DNA of 64,000 bases from Eledone cirrhosa (lineage: Eukaryota). Positions 5,048-64,000 of the stretch are shown piece after piece. Under the pieces are notes generated by a model. The model had not been told where the DNA came from and searched no databases. It saw only the letters and a list, made by a program, of their open reading frames with translations. Location of the stretch: assembly GCA_964016885.1 (NCBI GenBank), contig OZ024750.1, positions 868,001-932,000 of the forward strand, given 5' to 3'. A program made the translations under genes and the position numbers. Every line of letters starts with the position of its first letter. Position 1 is the first letter of the stretch.

Positions 5048-5170
5048 TCAAAGAACTTCATCAAATTCCATGGACCCTTTACTGAAAGGTGAGACTGGAG
5101 GGGTTTCTCCAAGTTTCATAATCATTATTCCAGAATCAGAACCAGAGGAGTCATGGCGGTCTTTATTATC
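5048..5170 (-). CDS. GARNL3: GARNL3 terminal coding exon: [40 protein letters not shown]
   Basis: Strong T-tract plus CCAG acceptor, phase 0, TGA-TAG stops; SPF/acidic tail resembles the recalled vertebrate C-terminus. Confidence 0.8.
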   Translation of the reverse strand, partial: DNKDRHDSSGSDSGIMIMKLGETPPVSPFSKGSMEFDEVL

Positions 5171-6065: not shown

Positions 6066-6101
<36 letters not shown>

Positions 6102-9100
6102 CGATATTAAATAAATGGAAACTATATTTATAAAACCATATTTATTTCATTATACATATTTCAGGGATACCAAATTAAAATATGGTGTGCCTTCATCAGA
6201 CAAAATACAATATATATATCCAGACAGCTTCCAAAAATAATGGTTGCATCTAATAGGGTACGTCAAAATTATTTATAAAACTGTTTATATATTGTATTTT
6301 GTCTGATGAAGGCATACCATATTTAAATTTGGTATCCCTGAAATATGTATAATGAAATAAATATGGTTTTATAAATATAGTTTCCATTTATTTAATATCG
6401 TATATCTACTCCAAAAACTTGTCGAGTGCTTTATATCAGTTATAAAATATTTACTTGTTGTATCCCAACAATTTTAAATAGAACTTTTGCATATATATAT
6501 ATATGAGTCTCGGGTTCAATCGGGAGTGACCTCAGGGCTTTTCTGATGATTTTGTTTGAATGAAATGGTTCTAGTCCTGTAGAAGCCATTTCTATATTAA
6601 ATATATATATATATATATATATAACTACACCTATGATTGTATGTCCATCTGATGAAGTAGCATGCATAATCATGTAACAGAAATATATAACTTATTGAGT
6701 ATTGACTCAGTCTGTTAAAACCCATCCAAGTTTTGTTCATCGGGAAGGCAGACGTTAAATAATGATGATGATGGAGGTGATGATAATGATGATGGTGATG
6801 ATGGTGATTACAGTTGGTGGTGGTGATGGTGGTGGTGGCAGTAACTATAAGATTATTTATAATTAGATTTGTTTCAGTCATGTTATTTAGACTGTTTACT
6901 CATCTGTGTTGAGAAAAATCAACCAGAATGTGATCACAAATCTTTGGATTATAGAGATTATGTTCGTTGCTATGTAATTAAGCATCTAATATAGAGATTA
7001 TGTTCGTTGCTATGTAATTAAGCATCTAATATAGAGATTATGTTCGTTGCTATGTAATTAAGCATCTAATATAGAGATTATGTTCGTTGCTATGTAATTA
7101 AGCATCTAATATAGAGATTATGTTCGTTGCTATGTAATTAAGCATCTAATATAGAGATTATGTTCGTTGCTATGTAATTAAGCATCTAATATAGAGATTA
7201 TGTTCGTTGCTATGTAATTAAGCATCTAATATAGAGATTATGTTCGTTGCTATGTAATTAAGCATCTAATATAGAGATTATGTTCGTTGCTATGTAATTA
7301 AGCATCTAATATAGAGATTATGTTTGTTGCTATGTAATTAAGCATCTAATATAGAGATTATGTTCGTTGCTATGTAATTAAGCATCTAATATAGAGATTA
7401 TGTTCGTTGCTATGTAATTAAGCATCTAATATAGAGATTATGTTCGTTGCTATGTAATTAAGCATCTAATATAGAGATTATGTTCGTTGCTATGTAATTA
7501 AGCATCTAATATAGAGATTATGTTCGTTGCTATGTAATTAAGCATCTAATATAGAGATTATGTTCGTTGCTACGTAATTAAGCATCTAATATAGAGGCTT
7601 CTTTACAGAATTCTGTTTGTTGTAGAAAATAATTGATCCAAACTATTCCGACAATGTATACAATATTCCCCATAGAGGAGTAATTAAGACTGAATAATTA
7701 CCAACACCACCAGGTATTAGATATATGAAGGATAAACCATCACCACCAGGTATTAGATATATGAAAGATAAACCATCACCACCAGGTATTAGATATATGA
7801 AGGATAAACCATCACCACCAGGTATTAGATATATGAAGGATAAACCATCACCACCAGGTATTAGATATATGAAGGATAAACCATCACCACCAGGTATTAG
7901 ATATATGAAGGATAAACCATCACCACCAGGTATTAGATATATGAAGGATAAACAAAGAACAAGAGATTTCTCTCGTTTGAGATGTTTTACTATAAGTAAT
8001 TTGTAAATATGAGAGTTAGTTGAAAAGTTCATAGGCTGACCAAGATACTCTCATGGAATGACCAAATCAGGTTTATTTTTCAACATAGTCCCAGGAAAGA
8101 AACAATGCAGTTATTAATAAGAAGAGTTGAAATTAATGCATGTAAAATTTCACAGCTCTAGCATCATTCCTTCTTAGTCAGCCTATGAACTTTTCAGCAC
8201 ACCCTCATAAAATTGGCTCTCTACTCTCTGAGTTCAAATCCCACTGAGGTCAACTTTGCCTTTCATCCTTTTGAGGTCCATAAAATAAGTACCAGTTCTG
8301 TACTGGGGTCAATTCTTCCTCTATATCTCTTCCTCTCTCATTGTATGTCATTTTAATACCCCTACAATTCCATCAATAGTTGTGGGACTATACATACATA
8401 TCAGCTATCAAAATATATGTAAGTATATACACAAACAATTTATATATTTTAACATATTTAATATGAAACCTCCTGAAACTGTCCCTGGTTCTACAATACA
8501 GAGCTGTTTATTTAAAAGTGTTTATATCTATTTCCAAGATTCTTCCTATTCAGCTGTTGTCATATGTCTATTGGTTGCTGCTTTAGATGTATGCACTCAA
8601 TAATAATTAACCCATTAGATACCAAATCAAGTTGGTCCCCACACTTAAGGGATCGCCACACTAGAGGAATATACTCTTGGCTTATCAACTACAACAACAC
8701 ATTGCAATGATACTAAACTGTTTATATTTATCTAAAAACCTTTCATAATAATATTATGTAAGAACCTTCTTTAAGTTATGTTCCAAATACCAAATTAATT
8801 ATGATAAAGCTTGTTATATGGCTAAATCCTTCCAAATTCTTGATTATTTTCAAAATGATTTTAAAATTATAGGCAGTGTCTTCCATTAGAAATATGATAA
8901 TGACTGGGTTATGTCGAGATGTTTCCTGATATCAGATGTTAAGATGTGAGGAATATATAAATATAAGAGAACATTAAAAGACAGTGAAATCTTAATTTCC
9001 CCCTCCCCCTCCTGGTATTATGCTAGTATATATATTTATATACTAACTTAATACTCGGCAAAATGATGGGGCATATAGCAAAAACATAATTTAATAATTC

Positions 9101-45992: not shown

Positions 45993-48900
45993 ATCATATA
46001 ATATATATATATAGGAGTAGTCAACACATACACACACATAAGTTCAAGCTTTAAATTAAGTGTTATCTTTTCGATTTATTAATATTTCTGAAAGTTTGTA
46101 AATTCAGTTGCCAATGATACATTTGTAGGTGATGAAGTTCCTGTCACGTGTGTATAGACTTAGTTGATATTTTTTTAAGATCACAAAATATGGCATATTT
46201 AGTGACTATATCATCTTTTCATATTGTTACTTTGGCATATTATTGGTTTTCAGTATGTTTTAGAAGTCTATGTTTTATATGTGCACAAAACCAATTTATT
46301 ATTTTTTTTATAAATTTGTTTCTTATATTACGAGCTGCAAGAAAAGTTAGTCACTGAGGATCTATTTGATTCTATAAGATTCTATTTGATTCTATAAGAT
46401 TCTATTTGATTCTATAAGATTCTATTTGATTCTATTTGATTCTATTTGATTCTATAAGATTCTATTTGATTCTATAAGATTCTATTTGATTCTATTTGAT
46501 TCTATTTGATTCTATAAGATTCTATTTGATTCTATTTGATTCTATTTGATTCTATTTGATTCTATTTGATTCTACTTGATTCTATTTGATTCTATTTGAT
46601 TCTATAAGATTCTATAAGATTCTATTTGATTCTATTTGATTCTACTTGATTCTATTTGATTCTATTTGATTCTATTTGATTCTATTTGATTCTACTTGAT
46701 TCTATTTGATTCTATTTGATTCTATAAGATTCTATAAGATTCTATTTGATTCTATTTGATTCTACTTGAGTCTATTTGATTCTATTTGATTCTATTTGAT
46801 TCTATAAGATTCTACTTGATTCTATTTGATTCTACATCTTAGCGTCTTCTATTATAGTCTTGTCTTTAATAGAAGATATATATATATCTTGATATATATA
46901 TAATGATGATGATGATGATGATGATCTTCTATTATAATAGTAATACAATATGTATATCTTCTATTATAATAGTAATACAATATGTATATCTTCTATTATA
47001 ATAGTAATACAATATATATATATATATCATCATCATCATCATCTTCGTTTAACGTCCATTTTCCATGCTAGCATGGGTTAGACGGGAGTTGTCCCGCTTG
47101 AGGCAAGGCTGGTCGGGTGACCGTGTCTCGCTCATATAGGACTATCTGGCAGGTTTTCTACGGCTGGATGCCCTTCCTAACACCAACCACTTTTACAGTG
47201 TGGAACTGGGAGGTTTTTACCGTGTTACCTACACGGCCACATTACAGCGTGGACTGTGTTTTTTGTTGTGACACCTACACGATCTTGATCTCATTTTCTC
47301 GTGCTGTTGGTGGGAGTGGGAGGATAGGGTAGGGGTAGTGGATTGGGGTGTATATTTGATTAAGAGGTGCCTACTGACTGTAGGTTTCGCTTTGTACATA
47401 GGCAAGGCGGGTCTTCTGTATTACTGCGTAGCGCCAAAGATCTCGGTCCAGAGACATTGTCTTAGAGAGATGTAAGTGTGTGAAGTCGGAATTTATCAGA
47501 TCATCCCAGGTTTTTCTGGGTCTACCTATTCTGAAACTACCATCTATTTTGATCGCCCTGCACTTTTTTATGCAGCTGTCGTCTTTCATGCGCATCACGT
47601 GACCATACCAACGTAGTCTTCTCTCAAGTAAACAGCATCTGATCCCTCTTATTCCTAATTTCTCACTTAGTTCATTTATGCTTTGCCATTCACATATATT
47701 ACTATTACACATCCAACGGAGCATGCATGCTTCGTTCCTTTCCAGTCTACGCAGGTCCTCTGCACGTAATGCCCATGACTCACTGCCATGTAGCATTGCT
47801 ATTCGTATACAGGCATCATACAATCTGCCTTTCATTTTTAGAGAGAAACCTTTTGTGGCCAACAGCGGTATAAGCTCTCTGAACTTTTTCCATCCCGTGC
47901 TGACTCTGGCTACTGTACTTTCAGAAGACCCTCCACCACTGCTGATTTCGTCACCCAGGTAACGGAAAGTGTCTACTATTTCTATAGAACCATCTGGGCA
48001 ATAGAAGGAGCTAGTATCCTTTGGACACTTGCTACTTATTGCACCTGAGCATCGGCCACATATAAAGTCTACGTTCTTAGATAGTTTACCTGTGATCCCA
48101 CTACATCTTTTATGTACCCATACTTTGCATTTGGGACATAAAATGGAATTTTTGCCTACTCCTTTCCTTCACACTGAGCATGGCCATTTCCCTGAGGGCA
48201 CCTGTGCCCTATTTTCCTTTCTACAAACTAGAACTTTAGTCTTAGACAAGTTAACTTTAAGGCCTTTTGATTCTAGGCCATGCTTCCATGTTTGGAATTT
48301 CTTCTCTAGTTCAGCCATTGATTCAGCTATGAGCGTTAGATCATCTGTGTATAGGAGTTCCCATGGGCAGCCGGTCTTGAACTGCTCTGTTATAGCCTGA
48401 AGGGCAATAATAAATAAGAGGGGGCTAAGGACAGAGCCTTGATGAACGCCAACTTTTACACTAAATTCTTCACAATATTCATTGTTAATTCTAACCTTAC
48501 TGACTGTTTCATTATACATAGCTTGTATAGCTCTCACAAGCCATTCATCTACACCTAGTTTTCTGAGAGCCCACCAGATAATGGAGCGGGGGACTCTGTC
48601 AAAAGCTTTCTCCAGGTCTACAAAAGCTAAGTAGCAGGGTTTACTTTTAGCTAGGTACTTCTCTTGTAGTTGTTGTACAAGGAAAAGAGCGTCTGTGGTA
48701 CTTTTACCTGACACAAACCCAAACTGCATTTCATCTAGATCAATTCGCTCTCTGATTAGTTGTGCTATAACTCTTTCTGTGACCTTCATGACCTGGTCAA
48801 CTAACTTAATGCTTCTATAGTTTCCCTTATCTAGAGCATCCCCTTTACCCTTGTAGCAGTTAATGATGATGCTGCTACGCCAGTCTTTCGGTATGACCCC

Positions 48901-54900: not shown

Positions 54901-57849
54901 AAGGATAGATAGATAGACAAATAGATGTAAGGATAGATAGATAGATAGCTATAGAGTTTTAAGGAAGCCATTGAAAGACATTTATTAAAGGTTTCCATTA
55001 AATTATTCAGTGTTAATTCATAAAATAATTCTTGTTTGCTATGATGTTTCTCTGTTCTACATTTCAGATGTCATAAAATTATCACATTTCTTTTCACACT
55101 TATTTCTCTGTGTTGGCATGGAAGGATAACTTTGAAAACTGTCACCCTCCCTTTCATGTCTTTCATATAAGATATGGATATATTTCTTTCGAGATTCAAC
55201 TTCTTTCATCTAACTACTGAAGCAAACAAAATAAGGATTTCTTTCTTGAAAATAAAAGTGAGTTAATTTGGAAAAGTTGGTGGTAGTATATTGCAAGTTG
55301 ACTGGGTACCATTGTAATTAACTGGTTGTAAGTTGAAGTCCTTGTGAAGGCACGTGGCCTAGTGGTAAAGGTGTTGGACTTATGATCGTAATGTTGTGGG
55401 TTCGATTCCTGGGCTGGGTTGTGTTGAATTCTTGAGCAAATCACTTCATTTCATGTTGTTCCAGTATAGTTAGCTGAAAAGAGTACCAGTAATAGCTGGA
55501 AGTTTAACCCTGCGATGGACTGGTGTCCTGTCCAGGGGGAAATCTTGTACTCTCAGTTGCTTCATGCCATGAAACCGGGATAAGCACCGGCTCAACGTAT
55601 TGCTTGCACCGCACAAGGGCATGCATGCATGCATCTTGAAGTCCAATATGTAAGATCTGGTTATGTGTGTATTTTATATGTATTACAGATATTTGTGAAG
55701 GTGAATGGTTTCGTGGTTAGAGCATAGGGCTTGCAATCATTAGGTGGTGAGTTCGATTCTCGGACCGGGTGATGTGTTGTGTCATTGAGTAAGACACTTT
55801 ATTTCACATTACTCCAGTTCACTCAGCTGTAGAAATGAGTTGCGACATCACTGGTACCAAGCTGTATTGGCTGTTGTCTTTCCCTTGGACAACATCAGTG
55901 GTGTGGAGAGGGGAGACTGTTATACATGGGTGACTGCTGGTCTTCCACAAACAACCTTGCCGGGATTGGCACTTAGATCACAAAAACTGGAATAAATACC
56001 TGCAAAGCATTTAATTTGATGTGTTAATGCTTTTACCAATTCCCTCCCAATTCATATGTTGGGTTTAATTCCATGGTATGTAGATTGAGTCTGGTAATCA
56101 GGATTTCAGGATTTGTTTTATATCTTTAGTGTGTGTTCAATAAATAAACTACTACTTTGGTGATGTCAAATTAATATACATGTTAGAACTTTAATTTTAA
56201 AGAGCTTTGTTATTATTATTGATGTTTATGTTTAGCCTCAGATCAGACACGATCAAACATACCTATGATAAAAAGCCTTCCTGAAATGACTATTCTGCCT
56301 GTTTCTGTTTCGAAATTGTAGGGTGTGAGTTGAGAGAGATATTTAACTGCTCTTTCTAGCAGATTTACCAATCATGTAGTGGCTCCCCTCATGAATTTTA
56401 CAAGTATTTGGCAACAAATAAGAAAGTTATGTCAGCTGAGGTAATTACAGTTGCAACTATTTTCTAAATAGTTAATAGACCAGACTGGTTTGCTGTTCTT
56501 TTTCTACTGATCTAACAAAAATCAATATTTACATAACTGCAGTGGCAGAAACAGCAGAATCACCATCATCATCATCACCAACTCAATTTAATGTCCATTT
56601 TTTTTCTATGCTATCATGAGTTAGATGAGTTGTCCCATTGTGAGATAAGTCAGATCAGATGACCATGTCTTACTCATACAGAACTGATTCTGGCTTGGTT
56701 TCTACGACTGGATGGATGCCCTTCCTAATGCCAACCACATTTACAGTGTGGACTGGGGGCTTTTTAACGTGGCACCAAAATGATAAACTGATAGGTTGGA
56801 CTGAATGCTTTTTGTTGTGTCACCAACATGACCACTTTACAGGGTGGACTGGGTGCTTTTTGTCATGTCAAATCAAAATGATTTATAGCATTGGAACAAT
56901 TTATAGTATTTAGTCTTATCTTTCAGAGCTATGAGTTCAAATCCTGCATTGGTTAACCTTGATTTTATCTCAGTTATAGCCACTCTCAAGACGAGAGGCT
57001 TGTCAAGCTGGAGCTTAACCCGGCTTCAGTAGTGTTAAGCAGCTGAAAGTACACATACCTCTCATTCGAGACTTGATAAAATAAATGCTAGGCATGTACT
57101 AGGGCCAACCATACAAGGGTCAGCTGAAAAGATACTCTCATGGAATGACCAAATGAGGTTTATTTTTCAACATAGTCCCTGCAAAGAGTTGAAATTAATG
57201 CATGCCAGATTTCAAAGTTATAGCATCACTCCTTCATAGTCAGTCTATGAACTTTTCAGCCGACCCTTGTAGTTCCCTTCTACAAATTTGAGATTTTGTT
57301 GTGATGTGAAAATTGATATTGTTATTAAACTGTTATCAGAAACAAAAAGCATGGCTATTAAGCCTGACAGAAATATCTGAGTACTAACAACTGAATTGAT
57401 TAAATACTAATTAGATGTTTTGTAGAAAAGGAAATTAAAATTAATCCTGTTGATTAGATATTTGGAGACATGTAAGGCTGGGTGGTTAGGGAGTTAGTTT
57501 TGTAATCCCGTTGTTTTAGGTTTGGTTCCATCTTGTGGCACTTTAAACAAGTCTCAAGTGCTATAATCTTCAGTTTATATATTGGGAGGAAAATTTGGTA
57601 GAAGGAAACTGAAGAGAATATATATATATAGAAGTAGTAACAACAGTTAGTTGACCATACCGAGAACAATTGTTTCACCTTATGTGAATCTTCAACTCGG
57701 ACTGGTAATCCAGTCCGAGTTGAAGATTCACATAAGGTGAAACAATTGTTCTCGGTATGGTCAACTAACTGTTGTGTTACTACTTCTACCAAACTCGTCC
57801 CATGGACTGAGTCCTCTACCACTACGGATATTACTTTCCAGTGTTCTAC

Positions 57850-63053: not shown

Positions 63054-63124
<71 letters not shown>

Positions 63125-63240
63125 GTAGAACACTGGAAGGTAATATCCGTAGTGGTAGAGCACTCAGTCCATGGGACGAGTTAGGTAGAAGTGGTAACAC
63201 AACAGTTAGTTCACCATGGTGAACTAACTGTTGCGTTACC

Positions 63241-63307
<67 letters not shown>

Positions 63308-63865
63308 TAATGAAATAACAGGAGGCTGGATTTGTGTAAATCCTTGAAAGGTTTATTACACTATGATCATTTCAATGACCGGGTTCCGTATGAATCCGGT
63401 GATATCATCAGGTATTCGAAATATAATACGTGAATGTAATAGATAAAATCCATGGGGCTGAAAATCGAGGACCCGAGGGCAACCTCTATCTTGCACCCTC
63501 TATCTTAGCCGGTCGCCCTCGAGCTAAGATAGAGGGTGCAAGATAGCGGCCGCCCTCGGGTCCTCGATTTTCAGCCCCATGGATTTTATCTATTACTTTC
63601 ACGTATTATATTTCGAATACCTGATGATATCATCGGATTCATACGGAACCCGGTCATTGAAATGATCATAGTATAATAAACCTTTCAAGGATTTACACAA
63701 ATCCAGCCTCCTGTCATTTCATTATAATATTTAACTCTGTAATAGCACCACCAACTACAAAAACAAAGACGGTTGAACTGCCTTACATTGAGTACTCTCT
63801 ATATTATTACATTACGATTGACCATACGGAATAGACCAGCTCTATACAGTGGTGAACCTCAAACC

Positions 63866-63906
<41 letters not shown>

Positions 63907-64000
63907 CCCTAAGACTATATTCATTAGTTTATCATTGAACTGTCTCTTACCTCATCTGTGTCTCTTTCGCCAGTTTCTACGCGGAATCGACCGACGCTCT
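5048..64000 (-). CDS. GARNL3: GTPase-activating Rap/Ran-GAP domain-like protein 3 orthologue (Rap-GAP + CNH); 27 exons in window, 5' end lies beyond the window
   Basis: Hand-spliced GT-AG exons join in frame with consistent phases. They give [84 protein letters not shown] and NGNLVHT, in the order recalled for vertebrate GARNL3. Confidence 0.95.
5261..5486. mobile_element. piggyBac-like MITE (copies also at 11306-11470, 13865-14086, 17202-17428, 36596-36823)
   Basis: TTAA flanks and CCCTTTAGCATTTA..TAAATGCTAAAGGG consensus terminal inverted repeats. Confidence 0.8.
6143..6207 (-). ncRNA. Type I hammerhead ribozyme motif (left arm of palindrome)
   Basis: Reverse-complement copy of 6295-6359 with intact CUGAUGA/GAAA/UA. 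Confidence 0.75.
6295..6359 (+). ncRNA. Type I hammerhead ribozyme motif (right arm of palindrome)
   Basis: UAUUUUGU-CUGAUGA-[AGGCAUACCA..UGGUAUCCCU]-GAAA-U-AUGU-A-UA^AUGAAAUA, AATAAA. Confidence 0.78.
6951..7596. repeat. 40-bp minisatellite, about 16 copies
   Basis: Unit atagagattatgttcgttgctatgtaattaagcatctaat. Confidence 0.97.
7705..7953. repeat. 36-bp minisatellite, about 7 copies
   Basis: Unit caccaccaggtattagatatatgaaggataaaccat. Confidence 0.95.
13224..13337 (-). CDS. GARNL3: Candidate alternative last exon: [37 protein letters not shown]
   Basis: Pyrimidine tract plus AAG acceptor, phase 0, 37 open codons to TAA, AATAAA about 60 nt downstream (13161-13156). Confidence 0.45.
   Translation of the reverse strand, partial: VQSESIWKITPTFLVEVESQVPPSSPSDVGNSPVFKN
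18998..19209 (-). CDS. GARNL3: GARNL3 exon: (S/A)[24 protein letters not shown]...TALTVEK
   Basis: TTTAG acceptor phase 1; NIYKIPL motif; donor AG/GTTTGT phase 0 (less certain). Confidence 0.82.
20506..20568 (-). CDS. GARNL3: GARNL3 candidate cassette exon: [21 protein letters not shown]
   Basis: T-rich tract plus AAG acceptor, GTAAGT donor, 63 nt symmetric phase 1-1, open in frame; no recognisable conservation. Confidence 0.65.
20921..21011 (-). CDS. GARNL3: GARNL3 exon: [30 protein letters not shown]
   Basis: TTCAG/GTAAAA, 91 nt, phase 0-1; SDIYF motif. Confidence 0.9.
21243..21473. repeat. 29-bp minisatellite, about 8 copies
   Basis: Unit ccatgtacaccacatgtctataccaaca[t/g]. Confidence 0.95.
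21506..21624 (-). CDS. GARNL3: GARNL3 exon: [40 protein letters not shown]
   Basis: CCAG/GTAAGT, 119 nt, phase 1-0. Confidence 0.95.
22558..22745 (-). mobile_element. tRNA-derived SINE with Nin/Deu-like core (representative copy; others at ~16800, 17710, 19835, 25582, 27260, 29826, 32900, 34780, 59370, 59780, 61150)
   Basis: A/B-box-like TGGCAGTATCGG..GAGTTCAAATCC; core CTTTCATCCTTACGGGGTCGATAAAATAAAGTACCAG; TSDs visible at 25568/25683 and 59764/59884. Confidence 0.85.
22746..24502 (-). mobile_element. 3' fragment of a CR1/L2-like LINE containing a 61-bp minisatellite
   Basis: Minus translation [45 protein letters not shown], then a UTR and (TTA)n tail. Confidence 0.75.
22931..24458. repeat. 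61-bp minisatellite, about 25 near-identical copies
   Basis: Unit catggaggttttaaaggatgcagtgtctcgacagctaacaactgatgcaggtagtttgttt. Confidence 0.97.
24833..24913 (-). CDS. GARNL3: GARNL3 exon: [27 protein letters not shown]
   Basis: TCAG/GTAAG, 81 nt, phase 1-1. Confidence 0.88.
25824..25890 (-). CDS. GARNL3: GARNL3 exon: [22 protein letters not shown]
   Basis: CTAG/GTAAGT, 67 nt, phase 0-1. Confidence 0.93.
26419..26568 (-). CDS. GARNL3: GARNL3 exon: [50 protein letters not shown]
   Basis: TTTAG/GTAAGT, 150 nt, phase 0-0. Confidence 0.93.
26783..26930 (+). mobile_element. R4/Dong-like (RLE clade) LINE fragment
   Basis: Plus translation [48 protein letters not shown] (zinc-knuckle tail plus RHD motif). 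Confidence 0.7.
26934..27097 (-). CDS. GARNL3: GARNL3 exon: [55 protein letters not shown]
   Basis: CCAG/GTAATA, 164 nt, phase 1-0; GCHLYAI motif. Confidence 0.92.
27910..28023 (-). CDS. GARNL3: GARNL3 exon: [38 protein letters not shown]
   Basis: TTTAG/GTAAAT, 114 nt, phase 1-1. Confidence 0.92.
28100..28356. repeat. (CAC)n-CTGCTGCCATACAT compound repeat
   Basis: Direct reading. Confidence 0.9.
28766..29420. repeat. (AC)n-TGACAT compound minisatellite
   Basis: Direct reading. Confidence 0.93.
29605..29703 (-). CDS. GARNL3: GARNL3 exon: [33 protein letters not shown]
   Basis: CCAG/GTTAGT, 99 nt, phase 1-1. Confidence 0.92.
29729..30113. mobile_element. Tc1-like MITE with nested SINE (relative at ~58930-59158)
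   Basis: CAGGGTGTTCCAAAAA..TTTTTGGGGACACGCTG termini. Confidence 0.7.
31101..31148 (-). CDS. GARNL3: GARNL3 exon: [16 protein letters not shown]
   Basis: TTCAG/GTATGT, 48 nt, phase 1-1. Confidence 0.88.
31358..31421 (-). CDS. GARNL3: GARNL3 exon (CNH start): [21 protein letters not shown]
   Basis: ACAG/GTAAGT, 64 nt, phase 0-1. Confidence 0.92.
31704..31778 (-). CDS. GARNL3: GARNL3 exon: [25 protein letters not shown]
   Basis: TTCAG/GTTAGT, 75 nt, phase 0-0. Confidence 0.92.
32516..32620 (-). CDS. GARNL3: GARNL3 exon: [35 protein letters not shown]
   Basis: TTCAG/GTGAG, 105 nt, phase 0-0. Confidence 0.93.
33738..33853 (-). CDS. GARNL3: GARNL3 exon: [39 protein letters not shown]
   Basis: CTAG/GTTAGT, 116 nt, phase 1-0. 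Confidence 0.95.
33851..34675. repeat. 36-bp minisatellite, about 23 copies, containing the GARNL3 3' splice site
   Basis: Unit ttactagaatgtaacataaaatattatattagaata; the first unit overlaps the exon boundary at 33853. Confidence 0.97.
35584..35690 (-). CDS. GARNL3: GARNL3 exon: [36 protein letters not shown]
   Basis: GTAG/GTAAGT, 107 nt, phase 2-1. Confidence 0.95.
36307..36352 (-). CDS. GARNL3: GARNL3 exon: [15 protein letters not shown]
   Basis: TCAG/GTAAGT, 46 nt, phase 1-2. Confidence 0.9.
36353..36853 (-). other. U12-type (minor spliceosome) GT-AG intron
   Basis: 5' splice site GTATCCTTTT; branch site TTCCTCAAC (36373-36365) 12 nt before the intron end; no long polypyrimidine tract. 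Confidence 0.88.
36854..36965 (-). CDS. GARNL3: GARNL3 exon with the Rap-GAP Asn-thumb motif: [37 protein letters not shown]
   Basis: ACAG acceptor; U12-type donor GTATCCTTT; 112 nt, phase 0-1; KRHIGND motif. Confidence 0.95.
37123..37196 (-). ncRNA. Type I hammerhead ribozyme motif (solitary, intact core)
   Basis: GCUGU-CUGAUGA-[stem II GACACU/AGUGUC, CACAC/GUGUG]-GAAA-U-AUAU-A-UC^ACAGC. Confidence 0.85.
38760..38848 (+). ncRNA. Hammerhead-like motif with a 1-nt core insertion (CUGAAAGA) in a palindrome arm
   Basis: GUGU-CUGAAAGA-long stem II-GAAAC-AUUU-GUA^ACAC, AATAAA. Confidence 0.55.
39991..40094 (-). CDS. GARNL3: GARNL3 exon (Rap-GAP): [35 protein letters not shown]
   Basis: CCAG/GTATGT, 104 nt, phase 1-0. 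Confidence 0.95.
41511..41850 (+). mobile_element. tRNA-derived SINE with RTE-type 3' tail ending in (GAT)n; inverted partial copy at 39611-39878
   Basis: tggcttaatggttagagc..gagttcaattc head; tail cttgcaagcagggaaaaagcggacgtaaaatga resembles the LINE 3' end at ~47050. Confidence 0.82.
42938..43036 (-). CDS. GARNL3: GARNL3 exon (Rap-GAP): [33 protein letters not shown]
   Basis: AG/GTAAGT, 99 nt, phase 1-1. Confidence 0.95.
45419..45494 (-). CDS. GARNL3: GARNL3 exon (Rap-GAP): [25 protein letters not shown]
   Basis: TTCAG/GTAAGT, 76 nt, phase 0-1. Confidence 0.95.
46360..46835. repeat. 10-bp satellite (tctatttgat / tctataagat)
   Basis: Direct reading. Confidence 0.95.
47028..49890 (-). mobile_element. 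5'-truncated, degenerate RTE-clade LINE (partial APE, RT, Cys-rich insert, 3' UTR with (GAT)n tail)
   Basis: ORFs 48169-49362 ([29 protein letters not shown]) and 47371-47862 ([23 protein letters not shown]); QIDYIL APE motif near 49790; stops and frameshifts; TSD-like tatcttctat[t/c]ataatagtaata at ~46987 and ~49891. Confidence 0.93.
50366..50456 (-). CDS. GARNL3: GARNL3 exon: [31 protein letters not shown]
   Basis: CCAG/GTAAGT, 91 nt, phase 2-0. Confidence 0.93.
52625..53512. repeat. TATATACTACAG-type degenerate satellite
   Basis: Direct reading. Confidence 0.9.
53648..53712 (-). CDS. GARNL3: GARNL3 exon: [21 protein letters not shown]
   Basis: AG/GTGAGT, 65 nt, phase 0-2. Confidence 0.9.
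54232..54498. repeat. 51-bp tandem repeat, about 5 copies, derived from an RTE LINE coding fragment
   Basis: Minus translation [14 protein letters not shown]; adjacent KKLDGTY and LYGNLPKIT remnants. Confidence 0.8.
55346..55975 (+). mobile_element. Two adjacent tRNA-derived SINEs; the first has a V-domain-like ccctgcgatggactggtgtcctgtccaggg segment
   Basis: gtggcctagtggt..gggttcgattcct and tggttagagc..gagttcgattct heads. Confidence 0.75.
57715..57755 (+). ncRNA. Minimal hammerhead variant (UUGAAGA core); mirror copy on the minus strand at 57660-57700
   Basis: CCGAG-UUGAAGA-short stem II-GAAAC-AAUU-GUU^CUCGG. Confidence 0.68.
58062..58168 (-). ncRNA. Type I hammerhead motif with long stem II
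   Basis: UCUUU-CUGAAGA-[AGCGCAGUG..UGUUGUACU]-GAAAC-AUGU-GUU^AAAGA. Confidence 0.68.
58828..58863 (-). ncRNA. Minimal hammerhead motif (dimer-type stem III)
   Basis: UCUU-CUGAUGA-AGGAC-UAGU-GUCU-GAAAC-GUA^AAGA. Confidence 0.72.
59969..60087 (-). CDS. GARNL3: GARNL3 exon: [40 protein letters not shown]
   Basis: AG/GTAAGT, 119 nt, phase 1-0. Confidence 0.93.
60869..60965 (-). CDS. GARNL3: GARNL3 exon: [32 protein letters not shown]
   Basis: TTTAG acceptor, GTAAGT donor, 97 nt, phase 0-1. Confidence 0.93.
61045..61606. mobile_element. Mariner-like MITE with nested SINE and partial duplication (relatives at ~8010, 21692, 45615, 57112)
   Basis: TA-CGAGGGTGGGCTGAAAAGTTC..GAACTTTCCAGCCGACCCTCG-TA. 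Confidence 0.78.
63358..63415 (-). ncRNA. Type I hammerhead ribozyme motif (left arm of palindrome)
   Basis: AUAC-CUGAUGA-[ACCGG..CCGGU]-GAAA-U-GAUC-A-UA^GUGU, then AATAAA. Confidence 0.8.
63617..63674 (+). ncRNA. Type I hammerhead ribozyme motif (right arm of palindrome)
   Basis: AUAC-CUGAUGA-[AUCGG..CCGGU]-GAAA-U-GAUC-A-UA^GUAU, then AATAAA. Confidence 0.8.
63951..64000 (-). CDS. GARNL3: GARNL3 exon (partial): [16 protein letters not shown]
   Basis: GRFRVE motif; donor GTAAGA, phase 0. Confidence 0.85.

What the first reader, a model, noticed from the sequence alone, without database searches (positions are those of the whole stretch)
63304..63728. Largest and least decayed double-hammerhead palindrome (~206-bp arms, 13-nt loop)
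The CpG-rich, nearly perfect arms begin at the end of a (CT)n(TA)n tract, about 220 nt into the intron after the exon ending at 63951. Both cores are intact, with a palindromic GAUC loop III and AATAAA just after stem I'. It is the best probe for finding the autonomous parent and a strong predicted dsRNA/ADAR substrate.
Basis: partly seen in the sequence, partly recalled or inferred. Interest (0 to 1): 0.78.

Follow-up and report, generated by a model that had tools for sequence, protein, structure and literature searches.

The report
Two-armed hammerhead Penelope passenger insertion
This mirror-image repeat is two truncated copies of a 2.3-kb non-coding repeat, present thousands of times in this animal genome, joined back to back in a (TA) run; their ends suggest it was likely written in by a Penelope-type jumping-gene enzyme copying from both sides of a DNA break, and the self-cutting RNA motif it carries is untested.

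Summary
The palindrome is real (206-bp arms, 7 mismatches) but is not a unit of its own. The right arm runs on to 63869, and the '13-nt loop' is only the offset between two 5'-truncated copies of a 2,283-nt ORF-less monomer. The family has over 5,000 intact hammerhead cores genome-wide and subfamilies of 2.0-2.3 kb. Each strand carries one core, not two. Copies end in (TA)n at two fixed sites, A and B, about 140 nt apart. In 43 of 44 classifiable two-armed loci one arm ends at A and the other at B; an ORF-bearing Penelope-like family does the same (5 of 5). Paired arms share template variants, either arm can reach further 5', and junctions cluster at a conserved hairpin. This favours two primings by a Penelope RT dimer over simple fold-back. 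No parent was found among three autonomous families. Cleavage, expression and editing are untested, and 5' ends do not pile up at the cleavage site. Opposite-strand hammerhead pairs and one-sided tails are published, and this scan found the two-armed footprint before on other DNA. The long monomer is what is new.

The parts
63304..63523 (-). Left arm: 5'-truncated copy, monomer positions 1923-2142, 3' end at site A (TA-like) fused to (TA)n
   Evidence: 97.3% to the monomer
63523..63869 (+). Right arm: 5'-truncated copy, monomer positions 1937-2283, 3' end at site B fused to (TA)n
   Evidence: 97.4%
63510..63523 (.). Head-to-head junction; the '13-nt loop' is extra left-arm sequence; 1-nt microhomology (G 63523); lies in the family's junction hotspot (monomer 1919-1944)
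63617..63674 (+). Type I hammerhead motif of the right arm (core 63621-63627, stem II 63628-63658 with C>T at 63633, GAAA 63659-63662, palindromic AUGAUCAU, predicted cut 63670/63671)
   Evidence: cleavage untested
63358..63415 (-). Type I hammerhead motif of the left arm (core from 63411; predicted cut 63362/63361); the sense core in a minus-strand pre-mRNA
   Evidence: cleavage untested
63474..63521 (-). GC-rich hairpin (monomer 1925-1972) upstream of the hammerhead; stem kept while the loop varies across subfamilies
63675..63680 (+). AATAAA after stem I'; not where copies end; role untested
63729..63869 (+).
63276..63303 (.). (TA)n target remnant, left
63870..63905 (.). (TA)n target remnant, right
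63951..64000 (-). Candidate host exon (81 nt, starts 31 nt beyond the window end); donor at 63950
   Evidence: no transcript evidence (laid nothing)

Best explanation
The palindrome is a two-armed insertion of a 2.28-kb non-coding, hammerhead-bearing repeat, made of two 5'-truncated copies joined head to head in (TA)n, and it was likely written by a borrowed Penelope-like RT/GIY-YIG enzyme priming from both ends of one break. SHOWN: repeat family, monomer length, no ORF, two fixed 3' ends A and B fused to (TA)n, one A plus one B per two-armed locus, shared template variants between arms, junction hotspot, arms that read through the predicted cleavage site and over more than one monomer. INFERRED: an enzyme dimer cuts both strands of (TA)n; one subunit starts at site A and the other at site B of the same RNA, or of sister RNAs from one donor, helped by pairing of the TA primer with these TA-like sites; both cDNAs run 5', often stall at the base of the GC hairpin, and are joined by short microhomology. 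The template is uncut, multimeric or circular RNA. The hammerhead is inferred to be a dimer- or protein-dependent processing element of the family's RNA and to be silent at this locus, where the 206-bp duplex would sequester it.
For: Copy number: 2,091 exact matches to a tail 25-mer, 4,699 to a hammerhead 25-mer, 5,260 with full core plus stem I'; reversed-pattern controls 0. Monomer of 2,283 nt with terminal redundancy; no ORF above 149 codons and no tblastn hit to PLE proteins. Position-ordered sample of 68 loci (all of the first 100 of 2,091 matches): 48 two-armed, of which 43 A+B, 1 A+A, 0 B+B, 4 with one end unclassified (43 of 44, p=3e-12). Same coupling in 5 of 5 two-armed loci among 10 loci of an autonomous family with a 1,216-aa ORF. 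Arms differ at 23 of 393 subfamily-diagnostic sites within loci (22 of these from neighbouring independent insertions) against 14,310 of 38,123 between loci; 5 of 35 doubleton variants fall in one locus, expected fraction 0.008. In 26 simple loci of the 43, the A arm reaches further 5' in 11, the B arm in 10, equal in 5; in the window the A arm does, which copy-back of a single target-primed cDNA cannot produce. Junction ends: 20 of 54 in monomer 1919-1944 (p=9e-9); paired ends within 15 nt in 11 of 41 against 3.25 shuffled. Opposite-strand joints also occur in contigs of one public run. PMC11167929: a PLE enzyme cuts and extends both strands, starts at two internal sites and uses uncut RNA.
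Against: No autonomous partner shares DNA with the family: three families tested, all negative, out of many in the genome. The start sites here resemble the target, whereas PMC11167929 reports initiation without homology. 5' ends do not pile up at the predicted cleavage site (3 of 54, p=0.74), so nothing shows that the ribozyme cuts. The active fold is far from the predicted minimum (-4 against -15 kcal/mol; the model ignores core tertiary contacts), the base of stem II is weak with no G10.1-C11.1 pair, and 9 of the first 100 matches carry a non-palindromic TGTTCA. Gene conversion between arms could also give shared variants. The sample comes from one contig and needs the tail 25-mer in one arm. 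Target duplications cannot be read in (TA)n.
Confidence: 0.7

Rival explanations
1. Self-priming (fold-back): one strand folds back and copies itself into a hairpin, as proposed for Penelope on an antisense template (PMC3846280), and the endonuclease then trims the two arms at the TA-like sites A and B.
For: Some junctions are perfect palindromes or use the internal inverted repeat (L004, L008, L012, L013). Arms share variants. The hotspot lies at a hairpin base. PMC8557442 ascribes the tail to endonuclease resolution.
Against: Either arm can reach further 5' (11 against 10); 2 of 26 loci have arms that do not overlap at all; independent trimming would give A+A and B+B, seen in 1 of 44.
Confidence: 0.15
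2. The arms are short end pieces (pseudo-LTR) of an autonomous Penelope-like element not yet found, and the 2.3-kb unit is its deletion derivative that depends on that one parent.
For: The hammerhead and tail are the best-conserved part between subfamilies (48 of 50 and 85% against 42-68% in most of the body). Non-autonomous Chlamys elements resemble their partners at the 3' end (PMC8557442). Only three of many PLE families were compared.
Against: Every long copy examined continues into the same non-coding body and closes into tandem monomers. The tail shows no codon-position bias and has frame-breaking indels. All 100 listed hits of a relaxed pattern are this family.
Confidence: 0.1
3. A host-selected intronic RNA device: a self-cutting or ADAR-edited hairpin that regulates the surrounding gene.
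For: Lies 81 nt from a candidate donor; CNH-domain exons lie downstream on the same strand; predicted duplex about -370 kcal/mol.
Against: It is one of thousands of similar insertions; the arms have decayed with mostly C>T changes and the + core stem II is damaged; the duplex would block the single sense core.
Confidence: 0.03
4. A MITE or foldback DNA transposon with terminal inverted repeats inserted at TA.
For: Long inverted repeat flanked by TA.
Against: The two outer ends differ (A against B), inner ends vary from locus to locus, arms are unequal, and copies are 5'-truncated or longer than one monomer.
Confidence: 0.02

Closest known systems
EN+ Penelope-like element insertion units (Arkhipova et al. 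2013, PMC3846280, passages; Craig et al. 2021, PMC8557442, passages)
   Same: 5' truncation, partial tandems, adjacent inverted 5'-truncated copy joined head to head, a tail present at one end only, simple AT-rich or (TA)n targets.
   Different: No RT/GIY-YIG ORF; the tail is about 140 nt rather than 30-40; one-sidedness is counted here as a near-strict rule (43 of 44).
Minimal hammerheads of metazoan PLEs (Cervera and De la Pena 2014, PMC4209133, parts 1-2 of 4)
   Same: Type I core, short helix I (4 bp), long helix II, palindromic helix III thought to act as a dimer; that paper already reports dual motifs 100-700 bp apart on opposite strands, tied to truncated PLEs.
   Different: No G10.1-C11.1 pair (U.U, or A-U / G.U if an extra U follows position 9); 13-position helix II with mismatches; very low variation within the family.
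Animal non-LTR retrozymes (Cervera and De la Pena 2020, PMC7229834, passages; Li, Clavereau and Pollet 2026, 10.64898/2026.07.22.740005, parts 1-2 of 5)
   Same: Non-coding, one type I hammerhead per monomer, head-to-tail multimers, proposed PLE dependence.
   Different: Monomers of 2.0-2.3 kb against about 300 bp typical and 51-972 bp reported (that survey capped the repeat period at 1,000 bp); mostly truncated two-armed copies rather than arrays; self-cleavage and circles not shown.
Poseidon PLE of Anolis in vitro (Frangieh et al. 2024, PMC11167929, parts 1-2 of 4)
   Same: Two internal start sites downstream of the hammerhead, both target strands extended, AT-rich target, uncut RNA as template, predicted dimer.
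   Different: Start sites here are TA-like and so match the target; they are about 140 nt apart; the element is non-autonomous.
Non-autonomous Chlamys PLEs such as MRC1 and Chlamys-N4 (PMC8557442 and 10.1101/2022.05.23.493040, passages)
   Same: Non-coding PLE passengers with pseudo-LTRs, head-to-tail copies, short 5'-truncated insertions in intronic microsatellites.
   Different: Those lack canonical hammerheads, target (C)n and resemble a known partner at the 3' end; no partner was found here.

Membership tests
Non-autonomous Penelope-like element | 5'-truncated copies, partial tandems, inverted head-to-head copy | tested here: met
Non-autonomous Penelope-like element | Two alternative 3' ends with a one-sided tail | tested here: met
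   43 of 44 A+B; 5 of 5 in an ORF-bearing family
Non-autonomous Penelope-like element | No RT/endonuclease coding capacity | tested here: met
Non-autonomous Penelope-like element | Sequence shared with an autonomous partner's end | tested here: inconclusive
   none with three families; the genome holds many more
Non-autonomous Penelope-like element | Mobilised in trans by a PLE protein | not testable with these tools
   needs an in vitro or cell assay
Autonomous EN+ PLE | ORF with RT and GIY-YIG | tested here: not met
Type I minimal hammerhead of PLEs | Core CUGANGA...GAAA...UH with helix I | tested here: met
   13 diagnostic sites in monomer 1925-2003 and none in 2004-2135 among tail-selected copies
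Type I minimal hammerhead of PLEs | Palindromic helix III / loop 3 | tested here: met
   AUGAUCAU in both arms; 9 of 100 listed family copies have TGTTCA instead
Type I minimal hammerhead of PLEs | Highly conserved G10.1-C11.1 pair | tested here: not met
   U.U, or A-U / G.U in the shifted register
Type I minimal hammerhead of PLEs | Self-cleavage | not testable with these tools
   indirect test negative: no pile-up of 5' ends at the site
Non-LTR retrozyme | Tandem units each with a type I hammerhead | tested here: met
   L167: tandem units of 2,077 nt, 99.6% identical; same-strand spans of 2.3-4.3 kb in 10 of 68 loci
Non-LTR retrozyme | Small monomer (about 300 bp, reported up to 972 bp) | tested here: not met
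   2.0-2.3 kb
Non-LTR retrozyme | Expressed as linear and circular monomer RNA | not testable with these tools
   no RNA holder listed
MITE / foldback DNA transposon | Fixed identical terminal inverted repeats moving as one unit | tested here: not met

The most novel reading that the evidence does not exclude
The family is a 2.0-2.3-kb retrozyme, more than twice the longest animal monomer in the papers read, that forms circles through an atypical hammerhead kept off until it dimerises or binds protein; a Penelope RT dimer loads at two fixed sites on one circle and copies it from both ends of a (TA)n break, so that head-to-head Penelope palindromes in general come from twin priming by a dimer and not from antisense self-priming.
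Probability: 0.3. Interest if true: 0.7.

Novelty: new variant of a known kind. Interest (0 to 1): 0.43.

Why it matters
How Penelope-like elements make their tandem and inverted insertions is named as open in PMC8557442, and PMC3846280 explains the head-to-head form by self-priming. The strict one-A-plus-one-B rule, the symmetry of arm lengths and the shared template variants give countable predictions that separate twin priming from fold-back, and a short non-coding RNA (monomer 1920 through site B and a little beyond) is a ready substrate for the existing in vitro assay. The family also shows that hammerhead passengers of 2 kb and more exist and would be missed by searches capped at 1-kb periods. 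The locus itself is an ordinary, slightly decayed copy.

Tried and rejected
Rfam: no hammerhead match in the window or the monomer. Parent search: the monomer and four other subfamily copies against loci of a 1,216-aa family, a second related family and a 784-aa family gave only low-complexity matches; these ORFs got no Pfam hit and only weak RT hits in PDB (E 0.05-0.14), so their PLE identity rests on motifs read by eye (YVDD or YRDD, YIG, cysteine linker) and their clade names are recalled, not tested by a tree. L008's apparent join to a PLE ORF was dropped: the joining sequence is a different repeat also seen in L081. ORF relic in the tail: no codon bias. Run-off at the cleavage site: suggested by score-ranked loci, not upheld in the position-ordered sample. 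ADAR scar in the arms: 1 A>G and 1 T>C among 7 differences. An inhibitory hairpin over the GAAA appears in some folds, but my probability for it was mis-indexed and is not used; a constrained-dimer script crashed. One search included one mis-chosen window row and was read by eye only; no formal covariation count was made. RNA: no RNA holder listed; three runs of unknown kind from one sample laid nothing on the exon, so presence/absence and splicing stay untested. Host gene: CNH hits at window 26934-27095 (E 0.03) and 21509-21625 (over cut-off); no PDB hit; its link to the 81-nt exon is not shown. Literature searches listed no paper on this family; subscription papers, Repbase and all supplements were not seen, and the supplements of PMC4209133 and PMC11167929 may hold similar hammerheads or end counts.

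Full report
OBSERVATION. The inverted repeat is as described: arms 63304-63509 and 63523-63728, 206 nt, 97% complementary, 13 nt apart, with 7 mismatches and CpG o/e 1.09 against 0.37 for the window. A motif scan finds a type I hammerhead core in each arm, at 63621 on + and 63411 on -; Rfam finds none. The predicted cut 63670/63671 and the AATAAA at 63675-63680 are in the sequence. The two cores are on opposite strands, so any transcript holds one core and its complement.

WHAT IT IS PART OF. A search of the genome with one arm gave 1,400 first-look candidates, 40 scored, full-length matches at 97-100%. The hits show that the right arm continues to a fixed end at 63869 followed by (TA)n. Extending 5' gives a 2,283-nt monomer, called U here, with 153 nt of terminal redundancy in L031. 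U has no ORF above 149 codons and no tblastn match to PLE protein pieces. The window locus is U1923-2142 inverted plus U1937-2283 forward, sharing one G at 63523; the '13-nt loop' is the offset between the two truncation points. Exact-pattern counts are 2,091 for a tail 25-mer, 4,699 for a hammerhead 25-mer and 5,260 for core plus stem I', with reversed controls at 0. Older subfamilies exist: one has 360 exact copies of its 50-nt hammerhead and a 2,077-nt monomer in a 99.6% tandem (L167); others repeat at about 2,040-2,060 nt.

THE TWO ENDS. I took all of the first 100 tail matches in position order on contig C1, which fall in 68 loci. Copies end in (TA)n at site A (U2131-2148) or site B (U2283), both TA-like. 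Of 68 loci, 48 are two-armed and head to head: 43 have one A and one B end, 1 has A+A, none B+B, and 4 have one unclassified end; 20 scored as single-armed. For the 44 classifiable loci p=3e-12 against independent ends. Among 10 loci of an autonomous family with a 1,216-aa ORF, the 5 with both outer ends visible each use one of each of its two end sites, also fused to (TA)n (L087 re-read by eye). The footprint is therefore that of the Penelope-like machinery of this genome. The identity of that ORF as a PLE rests on motifs read by eye; Pfam gave nothing.

ONE TEMPLATE, TWO PRIMINGS. Arms of one locus differ at 23 of 393 subfamily-diagnostic sites, 22 of them from neighbouring independent insertions, against 14,310 of 38,123 between loci; 5 of 35 doubleton variants lie within one locus where 0.8% is expected. 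Gene conversion could add to this. In 26 simple loci of the 43, the A arm reaches further 5' in 11, the B arm in 10, and 5 are equal; 2 have no overlap. In the window the A arm reaches 14 nt further 5' while only the B arm has the tail, so neither arm can be a plain copy-back of the other. Junction ends cluster at U1919-1944 (20 of 54 in U1800-2100, p=9e-9), the base of a GC hairpin whose stem is kept across subfamilies, and the window junction lies there. Paired ends fall within 15 nt in 11 of 41 junctions against 3.25 shuffled. BLAST overlaps at 41 junctions are 1-7 nt in 25, 0 in 5, 11-17 in 3, and gaps in 8. Contigs of one of three runs from a single sample hold opposite-strand joints, which argues against an assembly artefact.

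THE HAMMERHEAD. It is the most conserved part. Among tail-selected copies there are 13 diagnostic sites in U1925-2003 and none in U2004-2135. Between U and two older subfamilies it is 48 of 50 identical against 42-68% over most of the body (those copies were found through the core, so this figure is biased). The two fixed differences keep or add pairs in stem II. Against activity: the base of stem II is weak and lacks G10.1-C11.1; the hand-drawn active fold scores -4 against -15 kcal/mol (without tertiary terms); 9 of the first 100 matches break the helix III palindrome; and 5' ends do not gather at the cleavage site (3 of 54). Arms read through the site, and same-strand spans of 2.3-4.3 kb occur in 10 of 68 loci, so the template was uncut, religated or circular. 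In the window the + core has C>T at 63633 (stem II pairing 0.02 against 0.97), and the whole palindrome is predicted to fold at -363 and -373 kcal/mol, which would sequester either core.

HOST CONTEXT. An 81-nt minus-strand exon candidate ends at 63951, and CNH-domain exons lie downstream on that strand, so an intronic position is plausible but not shown by transcripts. A dsRNA/ADAR substrate is a prediction only; the arm differences are mostly C>T or single transversions.

PARENT. Not found. Three ORF-bearing families share no non-trivial DNA with U or four other subfamily copies, the tail is not an ORF relic, and a relaxed pattern lists only this family in its first 100 hits.

COMPARISON. 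It works like an EN+ Penelope-like insertion: inverted 5'-truncated copy, one-sided tail, AT-rich target (PMC3846280 and PMC8557442, passages). Dual minimal hammerheads 100-700 bp apart on opposite strands were reported in 2014 (PMC4209133, parts 1-2 of 4). Two internal start sites, extension of both strands and uncut template were shown in vitro (PMC11167929, parts 1-2 of 4). As a retrozyme it meets the tandem-plus-hammerhead test but not the size (about 300 bp in PMC7229834, passages; 51-972 bp with a 1,000-bp cap in 10.64898/2026.07.22.740005, parts 1-2 of 5), and expression is untested. Earlier notes of this scan describe the same two-armed footprint for 310-535-nt families in this and other genomes; none matched this sequence.

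VERDICT. A real but ordinary copy of a non-autonomous, hammerhead-bearing Penelope-type family. The class assignment is firm (about 0.9); twin priming by an enzyme dimer is the likely mechanism (0.7). The long monomer and the counted A+B rule make it a new variant of a known kind, interest 0.43.

Noticed in passing
window 63083-63275: A different small two-armed repeat with (GA)n/(CT)n ends and a CACCATGGTG junction sits directly beside the finding in the same (TA)n; related sequence at 57757-57849 and in 14 of 261 fetched loci.
   Followed up: partly
window 6094-6408: Second palindrome with a hammerhead on each strand (cores 6199 -, 6303 +), 98% arms, from another abundant family seen in several fetched loci.
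   Followed up: no
window 58859 (-), 37191 (-), 6543 (+): Further single hammerhead-like motifs of other families.
   Followed up: no
window 38595-38900, 2070-2439, 57644-57771: Other near-perfect palindromes next to (TA)n without a canonical core by my scan.
   Followed up: no
window 21509-21625, 26934-27095, 32516-32620, 5083-5170 (all minus strand): Candidate exons of a CNH-domain gene with very long introns.
   Followed up: partly
window 47609-47993 (-): Open frame resembling the end of a LINE reverse transcriptase, by recall only.
   Followed up: no
L081:2909-6556; G000 C2, C3, C4, C28: Young autonomous PLE-like family with intact ORFs of about 1,220 aa that contain a long asparagine-rich stretch; 36,878 first-look candidates. 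The ORF's first ATG lies at its first end site.
   Followed up: partly
L161:1755-7637: Tandem array of a 3,531-bp PLE-like unit with a 784-aa open frame and a long pyrimidine-rich 3' region.
   Followed up: partly
L264:2850-2900 (minus orientation): A copy of the second autonomous family shows a run of A-to-G changes around its hammerhead-like motif compared with sister copies, as RNA editing would leave (read by eye).
   Followed up: no
L024/L025:1885-2295, L127: Tail-only palindromes of the family placed tail to tail across a (TA)n spacer next to a main insertion.
   Followed up: no
monomer U305-778, U965-1386, U1450-1897: The monomer body is built of diverged internal duplications (70-72%), whose number varies between subfamilies.
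   Followed up: partly
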